From a virus: DNA of 34,173 nt. The notes under the pieces were generated by a model. It searched no databases and was not told where the DNA came from. It saw only the letters and a program-made list of their open reading frames with translations. The position numbers and the translations under genes were made by a program. Of the stretch, positions 20,352 to 34,173 are shown piece after piece; position 1 is the first letter of the stretch; the number at the start of each line of letters is the position of its first letter. The stretch lies in the UHGV virus genome UHGV-0113711; one strand, 5' to 3'.

Positions 20352-21377
20352 ATGACAAACGATATTTTTGTAGGAAATAACGTCAGAGTTTCAGTTAATC
20401 CGCTAATCGTTGAAATCCCAGGATATAACGACCCAGGTTATGTAAGCACTGATAAACTGGCTGCATTCCCTGTTATCGGATTTAGAAAAGAAGTTCAGAC
20501 ACTAGAAGATTACAGAACCGATTTTACAACGAAACTTTCAGGTGACGTAACAATTAATGACACTTCAATAAGCTTATTTGAAGACAGTTCTGACCCAGTT
20601 TATCAGTTGCTTGATGAAGCTCTTATGGAAAAGAAACTCCTTAGATTCAGAAGTCTTTATGTTATCGATGGAGAAACAAAGAAAGATAATGATGCTGGTC
20701 TTTATCATATTTTTAATGCTTATGTAACTAAGAAAGAAACAACAGGCTCCGAAAACTCAGTCGTTACAACAACTTTTAATCTTTCTCCTGATGGTCAGTT
20801 GTTTACAGGTTTTGCTGAATTCTCGGTTCCGTTAAACGTTGGCGATTATGGTATTGGTGCTGGTACAGAAGAAATCGCAGGTGTTAAAGACTTAGGATTA
20901 TTAACTGGTAACAGATGTGTAACAGTCGATGCAACAAACAGCGATAACCCTTATAACTCTGGCACGTCTGCTATGGCTATTCAGCATCCTGATGGTCAAG
21001 GTTGGGAGCTTATTGGTTCGTCAGTCGGTAATCCAAGCATCAGAATCAGAAACAAACAACAAAGCGGTGAAACTGTTACTGAATCTCCGTGGGTCAAAGT
21101 CTATACAGAACTTGAACGTCCAACTCCTGAAGATATTAATGCTTTGCCTATTACTGGTGGAGAACTCAAAGGATCTTTGACTATTCAGGAATATCTGAAC
21201 GTTCGTAAAAAGATTTCTGCGCCACAAGGTGAAATCTTGGCTCTAAATAGTAATGAAATTAACTCAACTTCTGTCAAGGTCAAAGGCAAAGAAGTCTATT
21301 CTCCAAGTAATAAACCAACGCCATTAGAGATTAATTGTGTAGCGTTAGGAGAAACCTTAGACGCAGGAGTATTTTAA
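20352..21377 (+). CDS. Hypothetical virion structural protein (341 aa)
   Basis: Long ORF in the structural block between head genes and the tail fibre; function not assignable by eye. Confidence 0.6.
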   Translation: MTNDIFVGNNVRVSVNPLIVEIPGYNDPGYVSTDKLAAFPVIGFRKEVQTLEDYRTDFTTKLSGDVTINDTSISLFEDSSDPVYQLLDEALMEKKLLRFRSLYVIDGETKKDNDAGLYHIFNAYVTKKETTGSENSVVTTTFNLSPDGQLFTGFAEFSVPLNVGDYGIGAGTEEIAGVKDLGLLTGNRCVTVDATNSDNPYNSGTSAMAIQHPDGQGWELIGSSVGNPSIRIRNKQQSGETVTESPWVKVYTELERPTPEDINALPITGGELKGSLTIQEYLNVRKKISAPQGEILALNSNEINSTSVKVKGKEVYSPSNKPTPLEINCVALGETLDAGVF

Positions 21378-21389
21378 CGGATAAAGAAA

Positions 21390-31418: not shown

Positions 31419-31781
31419 ATGTTACGTCGCGGATTATCAAACGAAGAAATTCAACAGATGTCCGTAATGATGTATTACGAATTATGGTTTTTCGACTCGT
31501 TTATTGAACCACAAAGTCCTGTCTATAACGATTTCTATCAAGCTCGATTGATTCACACTATCGAAGCAAATAACCCGAATCTGACCAAAGAGTACAGGAA
31601 AAAGTTGAACATGAAAGACCATCAGCTTATTAAAGATTCTGTGTTTAAGTCTCAAGAAGAAATCGAAAAAGAGAAAGAACAACAGGAGATTAAACGTAAG
31701 AAAGCTATTGAATCGATGTTCGACCCAGCTCTGTTAGATAAAGTTAAACTGAGAAAAACAAAAAAGGTGAATAATGGCTAA
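31419..31781 (+). CDS. Putative T-like segment of a GT frameshift fusion chaperone (first in-frame ATG shown; probably made as a fusion from 31075)
   Basis: ORF in the -1 frame relative to 31075..31383, open upstream to 31356; its end overlaps the tape-measure start. Confidence 0.45.
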   Translation: MLRRGLSNEEIQQMSVMMYYELWFFDSFIEPQSPVYNDFYQARLIHTIEANNPNLTKEYRKKLNMKDHQLIKDSVFKSQEEIEKEKEQQEIKRKKAIESMFDPALLDKVKLRKTKKVNNG

Positions 31782-34173
31782 ATCACGTTATGACGTTGAG
31801 ATTAACGGAGATAACAAAGGCCTTTCAAAATCTATTGATAAGTCTATGGAGCAACTGAACGAACTTGATTCGGTTGCTAATGGACTTTTTAGTAATATGA
31901 CAGGACCGTTGAATAATCTCAACAGTGGAATATCAGGTATTGCAGGAATGTCCTCAGGTATGCAAGCTCTGGGGATCGCAGGAATGGCAGCAGGTGTAGG
32001 TGTCGCCGCTCTTAATACCGCTTTAGAAAAAACAAGAGAACTTAATCAGATCTCTACGTCAACTGGACTTTCAGTTGAATATCTGCAACAGCTTCAAAAA
32101 GAATTTCGCACTACAGGAATGGAAATTGACCGATTCGGGGATCTTAACAAAGATACTCTTGACCATCTCGGTGATTCATTCAGAGAAGGCGCAGGCGGTA
32201 TTAGTGATGACCTTGAAAAATGGGGTATTGGTCTTGAGCGATACACTCAATATATTAACGACGCCGAAGGCGGTATTAAAGCACTTGTTCAGACTTATTA
32301 TGACTTGAAAAAAGCTGGTGCAAGTCAAGCCGAAATCGTTAACGGAATGGAGTCTATGGCGTCTGACGGTTCTCACTTGATTACTGTTCTTGAAAAATAC
32401 GGCTCAACTCAAGAAGCATTAAACGCTATCAATAACCAATCAGCTAGTATTACAAACGAAACAGCAAGGGAATACCAAGAATTCGATGAAAAGATGAAAA
32501 CGCTTTCGGTGAACTTGGATAATTTAACTGTTAACGTTATGGGTCCTCTCGTTTCGAAAATGAATAATCTTTATGATATTGCGAATAAAGATTGGACAGC
32601 TAGTAATATCCTCGATTTCTTTACTGAGATTGATAGCTTACGTCCTGATAAGATGTTAGCAGATTGGGCGGCTGACACGATTGTTGATGCTTATGCAGAC
32701 GCTAATCCTACTTCTGGCGCAGGTCAACGTAAACAGCAAAAAGATTATCTTGATACGACAGAACGTTTTCTGAAACAGACCAAAGCTCAAGGCGATAAAG
32801 CTTATGAAAAACGTAAGCAAGACGAAATAACACGAGCGAAGTTACAGAAACAGCGTAATGAGAAAGCCGCTGAGGAAGCGAAAAAAGAAGCTGATAAAGC
32901 TAAACGCGAAGCTGACAGAATCGCAAGAGAGCAAGAACGCGCTGGGAAAGAAAAGCTACGCTTACAGGAGCAAGCCGCAAGAGAATCTAAAGCTGCCTAC
33001 GATAAGATGATGCAAGACAGGGAGGCTGCGTTACAGAGTCTTTCCAGTCTTGATGCTGCAATTCTGAGTCAAGAAGGTCGCACGATTTCAAATCAGGTTA
33101 GTCAAGTTCAACAGGCTATTAAAACTATATCAGAACTTGAGAAAAAAGGAATTATCTCCGCTGAACAGGCTAAGCAACGTCGAAACATGCTGTTTAAAAC
33201 ATCTAACGCAGAATTTAAACAGACTCTTATGACGAGTCCTGAAGAAATTGGAGCAATCACGACAAGTCTTGAAGTTGTATATCAGCAACAGCTTGAACAA
33301 CTTGAAGCGAAGAAAGCACAGTCGTTAATCAGTCAGCAAGAATACAACACACAGATTGAAGCATTACAGCAAGACCATCAGCAACGTCTTGAAGCAATTA
33401 AAGCGACTGCTGGCGATGGTAATATGTCTAATCTTAAAAATCTTGATGCTATCGGTTTTGCAACTGATGAAGAAAAAATGGCTATTCAACAGAAAATGTT
33501 GGAAGAACAATTTCAGAAGATGCAAGAACAGAACCAAAAGCTATATGACGGACAATTGATTTCTTATGAAGATTATCTCAAACAGAAACAGCGTCTTGAC
33601 CAAGCTTATGCGGTTAAATCGAAAGCAATTACTTTCACTGAGATTCAGACAAAACTTCAGATGTATAACGGTTTTGCTTCTGGTATGGGTGCAGTTATAG
33701 CCGGTATTTCTGGTGAAAACTCTAAAGCTGCTCAAGCAATGTTTGCAGTTGAAAAAGGAACAGCAATCGCAAGCGGTATGTTAAACGCTTATGAATCAGC
33801 AACTGCTTCAATGGCAAAATATCCTGGTCCTTTAGGTTACGCTCTGGCTGCTTCAAGTTATGCAAGAGTTATCGGACAAGTCATGCAGATGAAATCAGTG
33901 AATCTTACTGGTATGGCTCACGATGGTATTTCTAATGTTCCAAGAGAAGGGACATGGCTGCTTGATGGTGGCGAACGTGTCGTTGATGAAAGAACAAACG
34001 GCGACTTGAAAGACTTCTTAGATAATCAGAAAACAGGAGGCGAAACAAAAATCGACGCAAGTATTCACGTTTCAGGGAATGTTACTGATCAGCGTTGGTT
34101 TGCTGAACAATTAAAACGTCAGCAACAGAACATCGCGGCTATTGTTCAAGACAGCAACAGACGCAAGATGTAA
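31774..34173 (+). CDS. Tail tape measure protein (probable)
   Basis: 799 aa. Long central Lys/Glu/Gln-rich coiled-coil region (AKREADRIAREQERAGKEKLRLQEQAARE...) and a C-terminal Gly/Ala-rich hydrophobic segment (GFASGMGAVIAGISG...AIASGMLNAY), as in lambda gpH-type proteins. Preceded by G/GT-like frames. Stop codon is the last three bases of the window. Confidence 0.65.
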   Translation: MAKSRYDVEINGDNKGLSKSIDKSMEQLNELDSVANGLFSNMTGPLNNLNSGISGIAGMSSGMQALGIAGMAAGVGVAALNTALEKTRELNQISTSTGLSVEYLQQLQKEFRTTGMEIDRFGDLNKDTLDHLGDSFREGAGGISDDLEKWGIGLERYTQYINDAEGGIKALVQTYYDLKKAGASQAEIVNGMESMASDGSHLITVLEKYGSTQEALNAINNQSASITNETAREYQEFDEKMKTLSVNLDNLTVNVMGPLVSKMNNLYDIANKDWTASNILDFFTEIDSLRPDKMLADWAADTIVDAYADANPTSGAGQRKQQKDYLDTTERFLKQTKAQGDKAYEKRKQDEITRAKLQKQRNEKAAEEAKKEADKAKREADRIAREQERAGKEKLRLQEQAARESKAAYDKMMQDREAALQSLSSLDAAILSQEGRTISNQVSQVQQAIKTISELEKKGIISAEQAKQRRNMLFKTSNAEFKQTLMTSPEEIGAITTSLEVVYQQQLEQLEAKKAQSLISQQEYNTQIEALQQDHQQRLEAIKATAGDGNMSNLKNLDAIGFATDEEKMAIQQKMLEEQFQKMQEQNQKLYDGQLISYEDYLKQKQRLDQAYAVKSKAITFTEIQTKLQMYNGFASGMGAVIAGISGENSKAAQAMFAVEKGTAIASGMLNAYESATASMAKYPGPLGYALAASSYARVIGQVMQMKSVNLTGMAHDGISNVPREGTWLLDGGERVVDERTNGDLKDFLDNQKTGGETKIDASIHVSGNVTDQRWFAEQLKRQQQNIAAIVQDSNRRKM

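What the first reader, a model, noticed from the sequence alone, without database searches (positions are those of the whole stretch)
20352..34173. Non-canonical order of tail genes suggests mosaicism
The fibre (21390..24473) and the J-like tip protein (25485..29174) lie upstream of the G/GT chaperone frames and tape-measure-like gene (31075..34173). In lambda-type siphoviruses the order is tube, G/GT, tape measure, then tip and J and fibres. T4-like genes (lysozyme, endonuclease VII) are embedded in a lambda-like head and terminase context. Either my tape-measure or tube calls are wrong, or the element is a mosaic with a rearranged tail module.
Basis: inference. Interest (0 to 1): 0.45.

Follow-up and report, generated by a model that had tools for sequence, protein, structure and literature searches.

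The report
Rearranged tail genes in E. coli prophage
The gene calls are right: this E. coli prophage belongs to a lineage whose otherwise complete lambda-type tail gene set has been cut into separate blocks and reordered, apparently still under selection, which is an unusual exception to a well-kept rule of phage genome layout.

Summary
31774-34173 is a full-length tape measure (PHROG 2.9e-73), preceded by a G/T chaperone pair. 25485-29174 is a J-like tip protein and 21390-24473 a fibre, and both lie upstream of the tape measure.

The window is a ~34-kb E. coli prophage integrated by a large serine recombinase in the 5' end of ybiT. The tape measure is its last gene, about 95 bp before attR. 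The missing distal tail protein and hub genes sit on the minus strand (3945-5155) beside the integrase.

About 40 relatives keep the canonical order tube-G-T-TMP-Dit-hub-DUF6950-J. These are the phage-like part of record DCP80, Atlantibacter prophages and IMG/VR contigs. The window's clade (tube at least 77% identical) is therefore derived, and it occurs in three arrangement variants.

All blocks diverge about equally from canonical relatives. The genes are intact with dN/dS 0.09-0.25 against a diverged prophage of the same order.

Each block starts with a conserved CTAAATAAAG/CATAAATA motif resembling the T4 late promoter, and all but Dit-hub follow a terminator hairpin. This plausibly explains why the reordering is tolerated.

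"Rearranged" is supported. "Mosaic of T4-like imports" is only partly supported. The 341-aa "tube" is a tube paralogue; the tube proper is 24535-25011.

The parts
1..1456 (-). Host gene ybiT (5' part) up to the attL crossover; core GTGA at 1453-1456. From 1457 the phage supplies a replacement N-terminus for ybiT.
   Evidence: Comparison with the empty K-12 site and with attR of MS 115-1; 5424 of 5426 E. coli genomes match this part.
1515..3020 (+). Large serine recombinase (integrase).
   Evidence: PF00239 Resolvase and PF07508 Recombinase; phrog_95 1.2e-71.
3179..3916 (+). Protein of unknown function (phrog_30303), followed by the hairpin GGGAGCAACAGCTCCC at 3929-3944.
3945..4592 (-). Tail hub N-terminal protein (DUF2163 / phiJL001 gp84-N type, lambda L-like position), displaced and inverted.
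   Evidence: phrog_2048 9.5e-20; PF09931 30.1 bits (cut-off 26); RefSeq annotates DUF2163. In canonical relatives it lies between Dit and DUF6950 on the late strand.
4592..5155 (-). Distal tail protein (Dit), displaced and inverted. The mechanical ORF runs to 5293, but the PHROG match and RefSeq support a start at 5155.
   Evidence: phrog_1302 4.4e-22. In canonical relatives it follows TMP directly.
5156..5200 (.). 45-bp divergent control region with one CATAAATA-type motif facing each way (plus strand at 5167, toward lysozyme; minus strand at 5185, toward Dit).
   Evidence: The same divergent pair is present in PSS-15.
5201..5686 (+). T4 e/gp5-type lysozyme.
   Evidence: PF00959; phrog_430, phrog_7.
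7533..8081 (+). Small terminase subunit, separated from TerL by 5.5 kb of mostly minus-strand genes.
   Evidence: phrog_57 3e-21.
13648..19557 (+). Large terminase (13648-15531), head-tail joining protein (15552-16046), portal (16043-17593), prohead protease-major capsid fusion (17653-19557).
   Evidence: phrog_15 6e-141, phrog_5774, phrog_21 5e-66, PF04586 and PF05065.
20352..21377 (+). Tube paralogue: N-terminal tube-like domain (residues 4-148) plus a fibre-like C-terminal part.
   Evidence: phrog_158 9e-5; short tail-fibre family matches at 219-333; 28% identity to the 158-aa tube, E 2e-11. Same position in canonical relatives.
21390..24473 (+). Tail fibre with C-terminal intramolecular chaperone.
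   Evidence: phrog_1699 3.4e-112; PF13884. The C-terminal half is replaced relative to MS 115-1.
24535..25011 (+). Tail tube protein proper.
   Evidence: phrog_158 5.3e-16. It lies immediately upstream of G/T/TMP in all canonical relatives.
25012..25068 (+). Breakpoint 1: terminator hairpin (about 25018-25035) plus motif TCTAAATAAAG (TAAATA at 25047). In relatives G follows here; in this clade DUF6950 follows.
25069..25485 (+). DUF6950 protein (lambda K / GTA g14 position).
   Evidence: PF22262 41.2 bits; phrog_2134.
25485..29174 (+). J-like central tip / host specificity protein.
   Evidence: phrog_31 5.6e-61; PF09327 80 bits; PF13550 below cut-off.
29220..31011 (+). Genes that follow J in canonical relatives too: 94-aa membrane/coiled-coil protein (29220-29504), endonuclease VII (29501-29977), 65-aa ORF (29937-30134), 'y' (30134-30676, weak minor-tail match), 'z' (30694-31011).
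   Evidence: Endonuclease VII, y and z follow J in DCP80; y and z follow J in the Atlantibacter and IMG/VR relatives. No homologue of the 94-aa or 65-aa ORF was found in the canonical relatives.
31012..31074 (+). Breakpoint 2: terminator hairpin GGGAGCCTCGCGCTCCC (31013-31037) plus motif CATAAATAAAAG (31039-). Identity to MS 115-1 drops from 100% to 80-90% from about here.
31075..31781 (+). Tail assembly chaperone pair: G (31075-31383) and T (ORF 31419-31781, in the -1 frame of G, open from about 31352).
   Evidence: phrog_344 1.5e-6; frame analysis.
31774..34173 (+). Tape measure protein, complete; the last gene of the prophage. A terminator and attR lie about 95 bp beyond the window end.
   Evidence: phrog_13674 2.9e-73 over full length.

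Best explanation
The window is a temperate, lambda/GTA-type siphovirus-like prophage of E. coli, about 34 kb long. A large serine recombinase inserted it into the 5' end of ybiT.

It carries one complete, intact set of tail genes: tube, G/T chaperones, tape measure, Dit, hub, DUF6950 and J, plus a tube paralogue and a fibre. In its lineage the ancestral colinear order tube-G-T-TMP-Dit-hub-DUF6950-J-...-z has been broken into blocks and reordered.

- The block DUF6950-J-...-z now follows the tube directly.
- G-T-TMP has become the last late unit, ending at a terminator just before attP/attR.
- Dit-hub has become a short divergent unit on the other strand, back to back with the lysozyme gene and next to the integrase.

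Shown here:
- the identities of the genes;
- the derived state of the order, since all outgroups are canonical;
- its persistence through deep divergence under purifying selection;
- three arrangement variants within the clade;
- the fact that every block starts with the same conserved motif, and that all but Dit-hub do so after a terminator hairpin.

Inferred:
- The order is tolerated because each block is its own promoter-led unit (terminator-bounded except at the shared Dit|lysozyme spacer). Tail assembly depends on the proteins being made together, not on gene adjacency.
- The reshuffling arose by recombination at or between these repeated regulatory cassettes and around the integrase/lysis region. 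This would resemble the promoter-stem-loop cassette shuffling described for T4-type phages.

At least three cut-and-join steps separate the window from the canonical order. The exact path is not resolved.
For: Gene identities.

Prophage limits and att core.

Canonical order in relatives:
- The roughly 31-kb phage-like part of GenBank PQ671644.1 runs tube 13220, T 14130, TMP 14463, Dit 16902, hub 17477, DUF6950 18264, J 18679, endoVII 22974, y, z, lysozyme 24887.
- Two Atlantibacter genomes.
- About 38 IMG/VR contigs with tube at most 61% and hub at most 56% identical to the window.

Rearranged order:
- In every member of the clade with tube at least 77% identical where the neighbour is visible, DUF6950 follows the tube (11 loci).
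- Variant A is the window, MS 115-1 (read gene by gene; five further complete E. coli genomes match colinearly), PSS-15 and L024-L027. Variant B has the Dit-hub|lysozyme unit flipped (L028/L029/L017/L018, L033). Variant C reads z, <int', <hub, <Dit, lys>, G, T, TMP, TerS (L030/L031/L014/L015, L032, L067).

Uniform divergence of all blocks from the DCP80 relative, 30-65% aa identity.

Selection: window against PSS-15, which has the same order. All genes are intact, dS is about 1-2.4 (0.5 for the capsid gene), and dN/dS is 0.09 (hub), 0.18 (Dit), 0.19 (TMP), 0.25 (G), 0.13 (tube, DUF6950) and 0.15 (J).

Cassettes:
- Terminator hairpin plus motif at MCP|next gene, fibre|tube, tube|DUF6950 and z|G; the motif alone at J|x, y|z and Dit|lysozyme (both directions); a hairpin after TMP.
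- 13 of 19 plus-strand TAAATA sites lie within 80 nt upstream of a plus-strand gene start (binomial 5e-12, with no correction for AT-rich spacers). The motif is conserved at orthologous sites in PSS-15.
- Sigma-70-like promoters are not enriched: 27 found against 36 expected.
- Hairpins after hub, z and TMP share one stem within a genome (GGGAGC..GCTCCC here, GGGACC..GGTCCC in variant C).
- A recombination patch relative to MS 115-1 starts near the z|G cassette, to 100-nt resolution.

Analogy: PeSL cassettes in T4-type phages (PMC2839356, PMC4122927).
Against: - No member of the rearranged clade is a characterised, plaque-forming phage, so function is inferred from intact genes and selection only.
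- Some copies carry IS elements: IS3 in TerL of MS 115-1, IS2 in the TIR gene of PSS-15, and IS5 and IS50R elsewhere. At least some copies are therefore decaying.
- No replication gene, repressor or late regulator was recognised in the small early region.
- The cassette-recombination mechanism is an inference. The shared sequences are short (about 20-35 bp). Breakpoints between a terminator and a promoter are also what selection alone would leave. At least three steps are needed and no single intermediate explains all the variants.
- The motif has not been shown to be a promoter.
Confidence: 0.72

Rival explanations
1. The element is a cryptic, decaying prophage. Its gene order was scrambled by neutral rearrangements after it lost the ability to make particles, so the order has no functional meaning.
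For: IS insertions in several copies, including TerL in MS 115-1. No recognisable replication or repressor genes. Defence cargo, a retron-type RT and a TIR protein, could by itself keep the island in place. The family is rare: 7 of 5426 complete E. coli genomes.
Against: There is one intact copy of every structural gene in the window. dN/dS is 0.09-0.25 at saturating dS between two lineages that already share the rearranged order, including the displaced Dit, hub, G and TMP. The order is kept in independent genomes and metagenome contigs, with three variants that all retain the full gene set. Integrase and att sites are intact. Conserved regulatory motifs precede the displaced blocks in both lineages.
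Confidence: 0.13
2. The order is programmed. Site-specific recombination on induction, by the serine recombinase or another enzyme, restores a colinear tail operon, as in developmentally excised elements or invertible segments.
For: The integrase sits exactly between TMP and the inverted Dit-hub unit in the circular form. Variants A and B differ by the orientation of the 1.7-kb Dit-hub|lysozyme unit.
Against: Excision joins TMP to attP and the integrase gene, not to Dit, and leaves Dit-hub on the opposite strand. No inverted repeats flank 3945-5686. The flipped unit in variant B is only about 70% identical to that of variant A, while neighbouring DNA is 92.5% identical to another A-type genome, which indicates module exchange rather than a switch. 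The DUF6950-to-z block would still precede G.
Confidence: 0.03
3. The apparent order comes from wrong gene calls or from a misassembled sequence.
For: The tube call at 20352 is only a paralogue. The nearest GenBank phage record, DCP80, is itself a scrambled assembly.
Against: Full-length profile matches for TMP, J, fibre, Dit and hub. The same order is seen in the complete E. coli genomes examined (MS 115-1 and PSS-15 gene by gene, five more by colinear match) and in many independent contigs.
Confidence: 0.02
4. The family is not autonomous. Its late genes are read by a T4-type late transcription machinery supplied by a superinfecting T-even-like phage, so it behaves as a virion-encoding satellite. 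Gene order is then free because each unit only needs a late promoter.
For: The motif resembles the T4 late promoter TATAAATA (PMC2988020, PMC1524935). The canonical relative in record DCP80 has 11 exact TATAAATA, all on the coding strand, and was co-assembled with T4-like contigs. No sigma, gp55/gp33 or replication gene was recognised. T4-type endonuclease VII and lysozyme are present. A 31-nt terminator is identical to one downstream of a virion structural-protein gene (labelled small outer capsid protein in a related record) in T4-like phages.
Against: In the window the motif is mostly CTAAATAAAG, not TATAAATA. An unrecognised small regulator of the element's own could read it. From general knowledge, T-even phages degrade cytosine-containing host DNA and block its transcription. 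Co-assembly in DCP80 may be simple contamination.
Confidence: 0.07

Closest known systems
Lambda/HK97-type siphovirus tail gene cluster (V, G/GT, H, M, L, K, I, J)
   Same: The same functional set is present: tube, chaperone pair with the second ORF in the -1 frame, tape measure, distal tail protein, hub protein, small K-position protein and a large J-like tip protein. There is also a GpA-type large terminase, a lambda-type portal and an HK97-type protease-capsid.
   Different: The order is not colinear. The tube is separated from G/T/TMP by 6 kb of tip genes. TMP is the last gene before attP. Dit and hub are on the opposite strand, about 29 kb away in the prophage (about 3 kb in the circular form). 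There is an extra tube paralogue and a fibre upstream of the tube.
RcGTA / phiJL001-type tail tip (DUF2163 hub, small g14-position protein, Phage-tail_3 host-specificity protein)
   Same: The hub protein matches PF09931 (phiJL001 gp84 N-terminal attachment domain) and is annotated DUF2163. A small protein directly precedes a large tip protein that has a Phage-tail_3-like region and a tail-tip fibre domain.
   Different: Phage-tail_3 is below Pfam's cut-off here. The small protein is DUF6950, with no peptidase match. The host is enterobacterial. The hub is unlinked from the tip protein.
Canonical-order relatives: the roughly 31-kb phage-like part of GenBank PQ671644.1 ('Escherichia phage DCP80'), Atlantibacter prophages and about 38 IMG/VR contigs
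   Same: Homologues of nearly all structural genes at 30-65% aa identity. They share the tube paralogue plus fibre upstream of the tube and y-z after J. DCP80 also shares endonuclease VII, and has lysozyme then TerS after z. The same kind of terminator plus TAAATA motif is present.
   Different: They keep tube-G-T-TMP-Dit-hub-DUF6950-J. Most have a different integrase on the minus strand after the lysis gene. The DCP80 record is a scrambled assembly joined to T4-like contigs.
PeSL promoter-stem-loop cassettes that mediate modular shuffling in T4-type phages (PMC2839356, PMC4122927)
   Same: A short composite regulatory sequence (hairpin plus promoter-like motif) is repeated at module boundaries. 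Modules are found inserted, replaced and reoriented between close relatives. One replacement patch starts near such a cassette.
   Different: PeSLs carry early sigma-70 promoters and shuffle accessory genes in hyperplastic regions. Here the motif is late-promoter-like and the shuffled modules are essential tail genes. Circular intermediates were not tested.
Large-serine-recombinase prophages that integrate inside a host gene and replace its end
   Same: Resolvase and Recombinase domains, a short crossover core (GTGA), and integration in the first codons of ybiT with a phage-borne replacement N-terminus.
   Different: attP lies directly after the tape measure gene rather than after the lysis genes. 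Related integrases at the same site carry an 8.7-kb non-phage island in other strains.

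Membership tests
Lambda-type siphovirus tail module | Tail tube protein | tested here: met
   24535-25011 matches phrog_158 at 5.3e-16. It is adjacent to G/T in all canonical relatives. No PDB sequence match.
Lambda-type siphovirus tail module | Chaperone pair G/GT made by a -1 frameshift, directly upstream of the tape measure | tested here: inconclusive
   G matches phrog_344 (1.5e-6). The second ORF is in the -1 frame, overlaps the last ~10 codons of G and ends at the TMP start. No canonical XXXYYYZ heptamer lies in the overlap; only GAAAAG.
Lambda-type siphovirus tail module | Tape measure protein | tested here: met
   phrog_13674 2.9e-73 over the full length, plus 8 other TMP families.
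Lambda-type siphovirus tail module | Distal tail protein and hub/tip proteins | tested here: met
   phrog_1302 4.4e-22; phrog_2048 and PF09931; phrog_31 5.6e-61 and PF09327.
Lambda-type siphovirus tail module | Colinear order tube, G/GT, TMP, Dit, hub, tip on one strand | tested here: not met
   The order in the window is tube, DUF6950, J..., z, G, T, TMP. Dit and hub are on the minus strand at 3945-5155. The feature is met in about 40 relatives.
RcGTA/phiJL001-type tail tip | Hub protein with phiJL001 gp84-N / DUF2163 domain | tested here: met
   PF09931 30.1 bits, cut-off 26. RefSeq names it a DUF2163 domain-containing protein.
RcGTA/phiJL001-type tail tip | Large tip protein with Phage-tail_3 domain | tested here: inconclusive
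   PF13550 19.8 bits, below the cut-off of 23.
Large serine recombinase prophage | Resolvase catalytic domain plus Recombinase domain | tested here: met
   PF00239 72.8 bits, PF07508 53.9 bits.
Large serine recombinase prophage | attL/attR with a short common core at an otherwise uninterrupted host site | tested here: met
   Comparison of the empty K-12 site with attL and attR gives the core GTGA.
Large serine recombinase prophage | Recombination directionality factor and demonstrated excision | not testable with these tools
   No candidate was identified; this needs an experiment.
T4-type late transcription unit | Promoter TATAAATA at -10 with no -35 element | tested here: inconclusive
   The window motif is CTAAATAAAG or CATAAATA, with TATAAATA twice (15529 plus strand, 8422 minus strand), enriched 22-56 nt upstream of starts. 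Exact TATAAATA occurs 11 times in the DCP80 relative. Transcription starts are unknown.
T4-type late transcription unit | gp55 sigma and gp33 co-activator encoded by the element | tested here: not met
   None of the annotated ORFs scanned (59 aa and longer) matched any PHROG or Pfam sigma or late-transcription family.
PeSL-type mobile regulatory cassettes | Composite stem-loop plus promoter repeated at module boundaries | tested here: met
   Hairpin plus motif at the MCP, fibre, tube and z boundaries. Hairpins with a shared stem follow hub, z and TMP.
PeSL-type mobile regulatory cassettes | Recombination between cassettes producing circles, insertions or replacements | tested here: inconclusive
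   One replacement patch begins near the z|G cassette and modules are exchanged or flipped between variants. No circles or direct-repeat footprints could be examined.

The most novel reading that the evidence does not exclude
The prophage family is a virion-encoding element that depends on a T-even-type phage. It has no recognisable replication or sigma genes. Nearly every late transcription unit starts with a T4-late-promoter-like motif, and the motif is exact TATAAATA in the relative that was co-assembled with a T4-like phage. It also carries T4-type endonuclease VII and lysozyme. If late expression needs only such a promoter on replicating DNA, gene order would be unconstrained, which would explain the free shuffling of essential tail genes.
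Probability: 0.07. Interest if true: 0.85.

Novelty: new variant of a known kind. Interest (0 to 1): 0.42.

Why it matters
The order tube, G/GT, tape measure, Dit, hub, tip is one of the most dependable rules used to annotate siphovirus genomes and to guess the function of unknown tail genes by position.

This clade has a clear canonical outgroup, three different reorderings and purifying selection on the displaced genes. It is a natural test of whether that order is needed for tail assembly or is only inherited, and it suggests the order is dispensable when each block has its own promoter.

It also warns that position-based annotation and prophage-completeness tools can miss Dit and hub genes placed on the other strand across the attachment site.

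The conserved T4-late-like motif in a temperate siphovirus-type prophage with no recognisable late regulator is a separate lead that can be tested directly.

Tried and rejected
- Near-identity DNA search of 13648-34173 against 50,697 phage records found only a 76% capsid match to DCP80 and a 47-bp terminator match to T4-like phages. There is no close cultured relative.
- A capsid protein search found nothing above 31% identity apart from DCP80.
- I considered DCP80 as a genuine T4/siphovirus hybrid and rejected it. The record has duplicated rIIA, spackle, RpbA and exonuclease genes, several in opposite orientations. T4-like identity starts only at about 30.7 kb. The first ~31 kb form a self-contained unit ending lysozyme, TerS, early genes.
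- I looked for inverted or direct repeats that could mark an invertible segment or att-like sites at the breakpoints. There were none beyond the shared terminator hairpins.
- I tested whether excision restores the canonical order. It does not.
- I tried to derive a single-step path between the canonical order and variants A, B and C. Adjacency analysis gives at least three cut-and-join steps for the window, and no variant is a simple intermediate.
- PDB sequence searches with the tube profile and the tube paralogue found nothing.
- Rfam found nothing, including no retron RNA.
- Literature searches for a ybiT prophage, for DCP80 and for a T4-late-promoter satellite found nothing relevant.
- One literature search failed on a short term.
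- I did not run the large protein database searches or structure prediction, because profile matches and synteny in about 40 relatives already settled the gene identities.

Full report
**What is in the window**

ORF listing and profile searches give a coherent map.

- Bases 1 to about 1456 are the 5' part of the host gene ybiT, on the minus strand.
- 1515-3020: large serine recombinase (Resolvase and Recombinase domains).
- 3179-3916: protein of unknown function.
- 3945-4592 (minus): tail hub N-terminal protein (PF09931, phrog_2048; DUF2163 in RefSeq).
- 4592-5155 (minus): distal tail protein (phrog_1302, 4.4e-22).
- 5201-5686: T4 e/gp5-type lysozyme.
- 6326-7222: TIR-domain protein.
- 7533-8081: small terminase.
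- 8588-10357 (minus): retron-type reverse transcriptase.
- A few small regulators follow.
- From 13648, an uninterrupted plus-strand series:
  - large terminase, head-tail joining protein, portal and prohead protease-capsid fusion;
  - two small proteins;
  - a 341-aa tube paralogue (20352-21377);
  - a 1027-aa fibre (21390-24473);
  - the 158-aa tube (24535-25011);
  - DUF6950 (25069-25485);
  - a 1229-aa J-like tip protein (25485-29174);
  - a 94-aa membrane protein;
  - endonuclease VII (29501-29977);
  - two conserved proteins, here called y (30134-30676) and z (30694-31011);
  - chaperone G (31075-31383) and T (31419-31781, in the -1 frame of G);
  - the tape measure (31774-34173).

**Check of the observation**

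The tape measure call is secure: phrog_13674 at 2.9e-73 over residues 7-799 against profile positions 9-759 of 764. J and the fibre are equally secure. Fibre and J therefore do lie upstream of G/T/TMP.

Its residues 4-148 are 28% identical to the 158-aa protein (E 2e-11) and its C-terminal part gives short fibre-family matches. The 158-aa protein is the one that sits directly before G in all relatives with the usual order.

**Where the window comes from, and its limits**

The first 6 kb and the last 10 kb each match chromosomes of complete E. coli genomes. In strain MS 115-1 the element lies between ybiT and ldtB, which are neighbours in K-12.

Aligning the empty K-12 site with the two junctions places the crossover in a GTGA core inside the first codons of ybiT. 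The phage end supplies a replacement N-terminus.

The right junction lies about 95 bp beyond the window's last base, after a terminator hairpin that follows the tape measure stop codon. The tape measure is therefore the last gene of the prophage, and no tip genes are hidden beyond the window. In the excised circle the tape measure would be followed by attP and the integrase gene, and then by the hub and Dit genes pointing the other way. Excision does not restore a colinear operon.

**Relatives and polarity**

There is no close cultured relative.

The nearest GenBank record is 'Escherichia phage DCP80', labelled as a T4-like phage. The record is scrambled. It has two rIIA genes and two exonuclease gene pairs in opposite orientations, and duplicated spackle and RpbA genes. 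Identity to T4-like phages starts only at about 30.7 kb. Its first ~31 kb are a self-contained siphovirus-like genome with homologues of nearly all structural genes of the window (30-65% aa identity). They run in the usual order:

- tube, G, T, TMP, Dit, hub, DUF6950, J, endonuclease VII, y, z, lysozyme, small terminase.

Scans of public genomes and IMG/VR with tube and hub alignments found the same canonical order in two Atlantibacter genomes and in about 38 viral contigs. These relatives have tube identity of at most 61% and hub identity of at most 56% to the window.

All sequences with tube identity of at least 77% form a second group. In every case where the neighbour is visible, DUF6950 and J follow the tube (11 loci). 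Because every outgroup is canonical, the window's order is derived.

The tube paralogue and fibre lie upstream of the tube in canonical relatives too.

**Three variants within the rearranged group**

- Variant A is the window, MS 115-1 (five further complete E. coli genomes match window 24000-34173 colinearly), the 75-87% identical prophage of strain PSS-15 and several IMG/VR contigs. Order: int>, (hyp>), <hub, <Dit, lys>..., TerS>..., TerL> ... tube, DUF6950, J..., z, G, T, TMP, attR.
- Variant B has the same late series, but the 1.7-kb unit is flipped: int>, <lys, Dit>, hub>, TerS>.
- Variant C reads tube, DUF6950, J, ..., z, <int' (a different integrase, 39% identical), <hub, <Dit, lys>, G>, T>, TMP>, TerS>.

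The flipped unit of B is only about 70% identical to that of A, while the adjacent TerS-TerL region of B is 92.5% identical to another A-type genome. This looks like exchange of a module, not a flip-flop switch. No inverted repeats flank the unit in the window.

Adjacency analysis shows that all four canonical junctions (tube|G, TMP|Dit, hub|DUF6950, z|lysis gene) are broken in the window. At least three cut-and-join steps are needed, and I could not order the variants into a simple series.

**Is the rearranged module functional?**

The window has one intact copy of each gene.

Against PSS-15, which already has the same order, synonymous divergence is near saturation for most genes (dS about 1-2.4; 0.5 for the capsid gene). 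dN/dS values are:

| Gene | dN/dS |
|---|---|
| hub | 0.09 |
| Dit | 0.18 |
| tube | 0.13 |
| DUF6950 | 0.13 |
| J | 0.15 |
| G | 0.25 |
| TMP | 0.19 |
| large terminase | 0.09 |

The displaced genes have therefore stayed under purifying selection long after the rearrangement.

Against this, several copies carry IS elements. No replication, repressor or late-regulator gene was recognised. No member is a characterised phage.

**Why the order may be tolerated, and how it may have arisen**

The intergenic spacers at the block boundaries share a format. At MCP|next gene, fibre|tube, tube|DUF6950 and z|G, a G+C-rich hairpin with a T run is followed by a conserved motif, CTAAATAAAG or CATAAATA, 22-56 nt before the next start codon. 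The motif occurs without a hairpin at J|x and y|z.

- The motif precedes lysozyme, TerS, TerL, the head-tail joining gene, the capsid gene, the gene after it, the tube, DUF6950, the gene after J, z and G.
- On the other strand it precedes Dit and a small zinc-finger gene.
- 13 of the 19 plus-strand TAAATA sites lie within 80 nt upstream of a plus-strand start (binomial 5e-12, with no correction for AT-rich spacers).
- The motif is present at the orthologous sites of PSS-15, including the divergent pair between Dit and lysozyme.
- Sigma-70-type promoters are not enriched in the late region (27 found, 36 expected).

Each relocated block (DUF6950-J..., G-T-TMP, Dit-hub, lysozyme) thus begins with its own copy of the motif. 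All but Dit-hub, which shares the 45-bp divergent spacer with lysozyme, do so after a terminator.

Canonical relatives have the same kind of cassette at tube|G and hub|DUF6950. In DCP80 these two copies are nearly identical over about 35 bp and flank the G-to-hub block as direct repeats.

Within one genome the hairpins after hub, z and TMP share the same stem: GGGAGC..GCTCCC in the window and GGGACC..GGTCCC in variant C.

Relative to MS 115-1 the window is 100% identical up to the z|G cassette, 80-90% (as low as about 45-57% in places) through G, T and two thirds of TMP, and 100% again from 33400. At least one recombination event therefore has its edge near a cassette, to 100-nt resolution.

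From this I infer, but have not shown, two things.

1. The blocks are separate late transcription units, so co-expression rather than adjacency is what tail assembly needs.
2. Recombination at these repeated cassettes and around the integrase/lysis region produced the reordering. This would be comparable to the promoter-stem-loop cassettes that shuffle modules in T4-type phages (PMC2839356, PMC4122927).

**T4-like features**

Endonuclease VII and the lysozyme are present at corresponding positions in the canonical DCP80 relative. They are old components of this subgroup rather than recent imports.

The motif resembles the T4 late promoter TATAAATA (PMC2988020, PMC1524935). The DCP80 relative has 11 exact copies, all on the coding strand.

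A 31-nt terminator after the capsid gene is identical to one downstream of a small virion structural-protein gene in T4-like phages, labelled small outer capsid protein in a related record.

No gp55/gp33-like or other sigma gene was found. What reads the motif is unknown. The most novel reading not excluded is dependence on a T-even-type helper. I give it about 7%.

**Verdict**

The interpretation 'rearranged tail module' is supported and extended: Dit and hub lie on the other strand across the attachment site, and TMP is the terminal gene. 'Mosaic' is not the cause of the order, although module exchange occurs at a finer scale.

This is a new variant of a known kind: a lambda/GTA-type tail module whose colinearity has been lost in a persisting lineage. 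Interest is moderate, as a natural test of whether tail gene order matters and as a caution for position-based annotation.

Noticed in passing
window 5167, 7514, 13593, 15529, 17597, 19633, 24499, 25047, 29180, 30670, 31041 (+); 5185, 8422 (-): A conserved motif, CTAAATAAAG or CATAAATA (TATAAATA at 15529 and 8422), lies 22-56 nt upstream of start codons. It resembles the T4 late promoter and is conserved in PSS-15. In the DCP80 relative it is exact TATAAATA, 11 times and only on the coding strand. No factor that could read it was recognised in the element.
   Followed up: partly
L001/L071 (GenBank PQ671644.1, Escherichia phage DCP80): The record, labelled as a 141-kb Tevenvirinae genome, looks like a scrambled concatenation. 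A self-contained ~31-kb siphovirus-like genome (1 to about 30.7 kb) is joined to T4-like pieces with duplicated rIIA, spackle, RpbA and exonuclease genes, several in opposite orientations.
   Followed up: partly
window 1440-1515: Integration is inside the first codons of ybiT, and the phage end supplies a new N-terminus (LLSNNIT in place of LVSSNVT). The host gene therefore stays open in the lysogen.
   Followed up: yes
window 6039-7222 and 8588-10357: Defence-type cargo sits between the lysozyme and large terminase genes. One item is a TIR-domain protein (CAP12/Pycsar-effector type) with a small upstream partner. The other is a 589-aa reverse transcriptase that RefSeq names retron Ec67 family RT/endonuclease. 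Rfam found no retron RNA.
   Followed up: partly
window 7533-8081 versus 13648: The small terminase gene is separated from the large terminase gene by 5.5 kb of mostly minus-strand regulatory and defence genes. The same lysozyme, TerS, early genes, TerL layout is seen in the DCP80 relative.
   Followed up: partly
window 19595-19625: A 31-nt terminator (GGACTCCTTCGGGAGTCC plus T run) after the capsid gene is identical to the terminator downstream of a small virion structural-protein gene in T4-like phages such as YUEEL01; related records label the gene small outer capsid protein.
   Followed up: partly
window 25485-25620: The J-like protein starts with a ~45-residue Ala/Gly/Ile-rich hydrophobic segment that looks like a membrane or signal-anchor region, which is unusual for a tip protein.
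   Followed up: no
window 22800-24200 and 31075-33400: Relative to the otherwise ~100% identical MS 115-1 prophage, the fibre C-terminal half (36-80% identical) and a patch covering G, T and two thirds of TMP (mostly 75-94%, falling to about 45-57% at 32600-32900) have been replaced by recombination.
   Followed up: yes
L007 (E. coli RM9088) and many other E. coli genomes: A related serine recombinase (about 88% DNA identity over its first ~1 kb) sits at the same ybiT site but carries an 8.7-kb non-phage island with HNH, a methyltransferase and a second recombinase. The integrase/att module therefore appears to move between element types.
   Followed up: partly
L002 (MS 115-1), L003 (PSS-15) and hits H70, H71, H81: IS elements interrupt several copies of the prophage: IS3 in the large terminase gene of MS 115-1, IS2 in the TIR gene of PSS-15, and IS50R, IS3 and IS5 elsewhere.
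   Followed up: no
window 10400-13600: The early region is very small and ORF-poor: a 246-aa coiled-coil protein, a 64-aa HTH protein, a 59-aa protein and a 144-aa GntR-like HTH protein. No replication initiator, repressor or antiterminator was recognised.
   Followed up: partly
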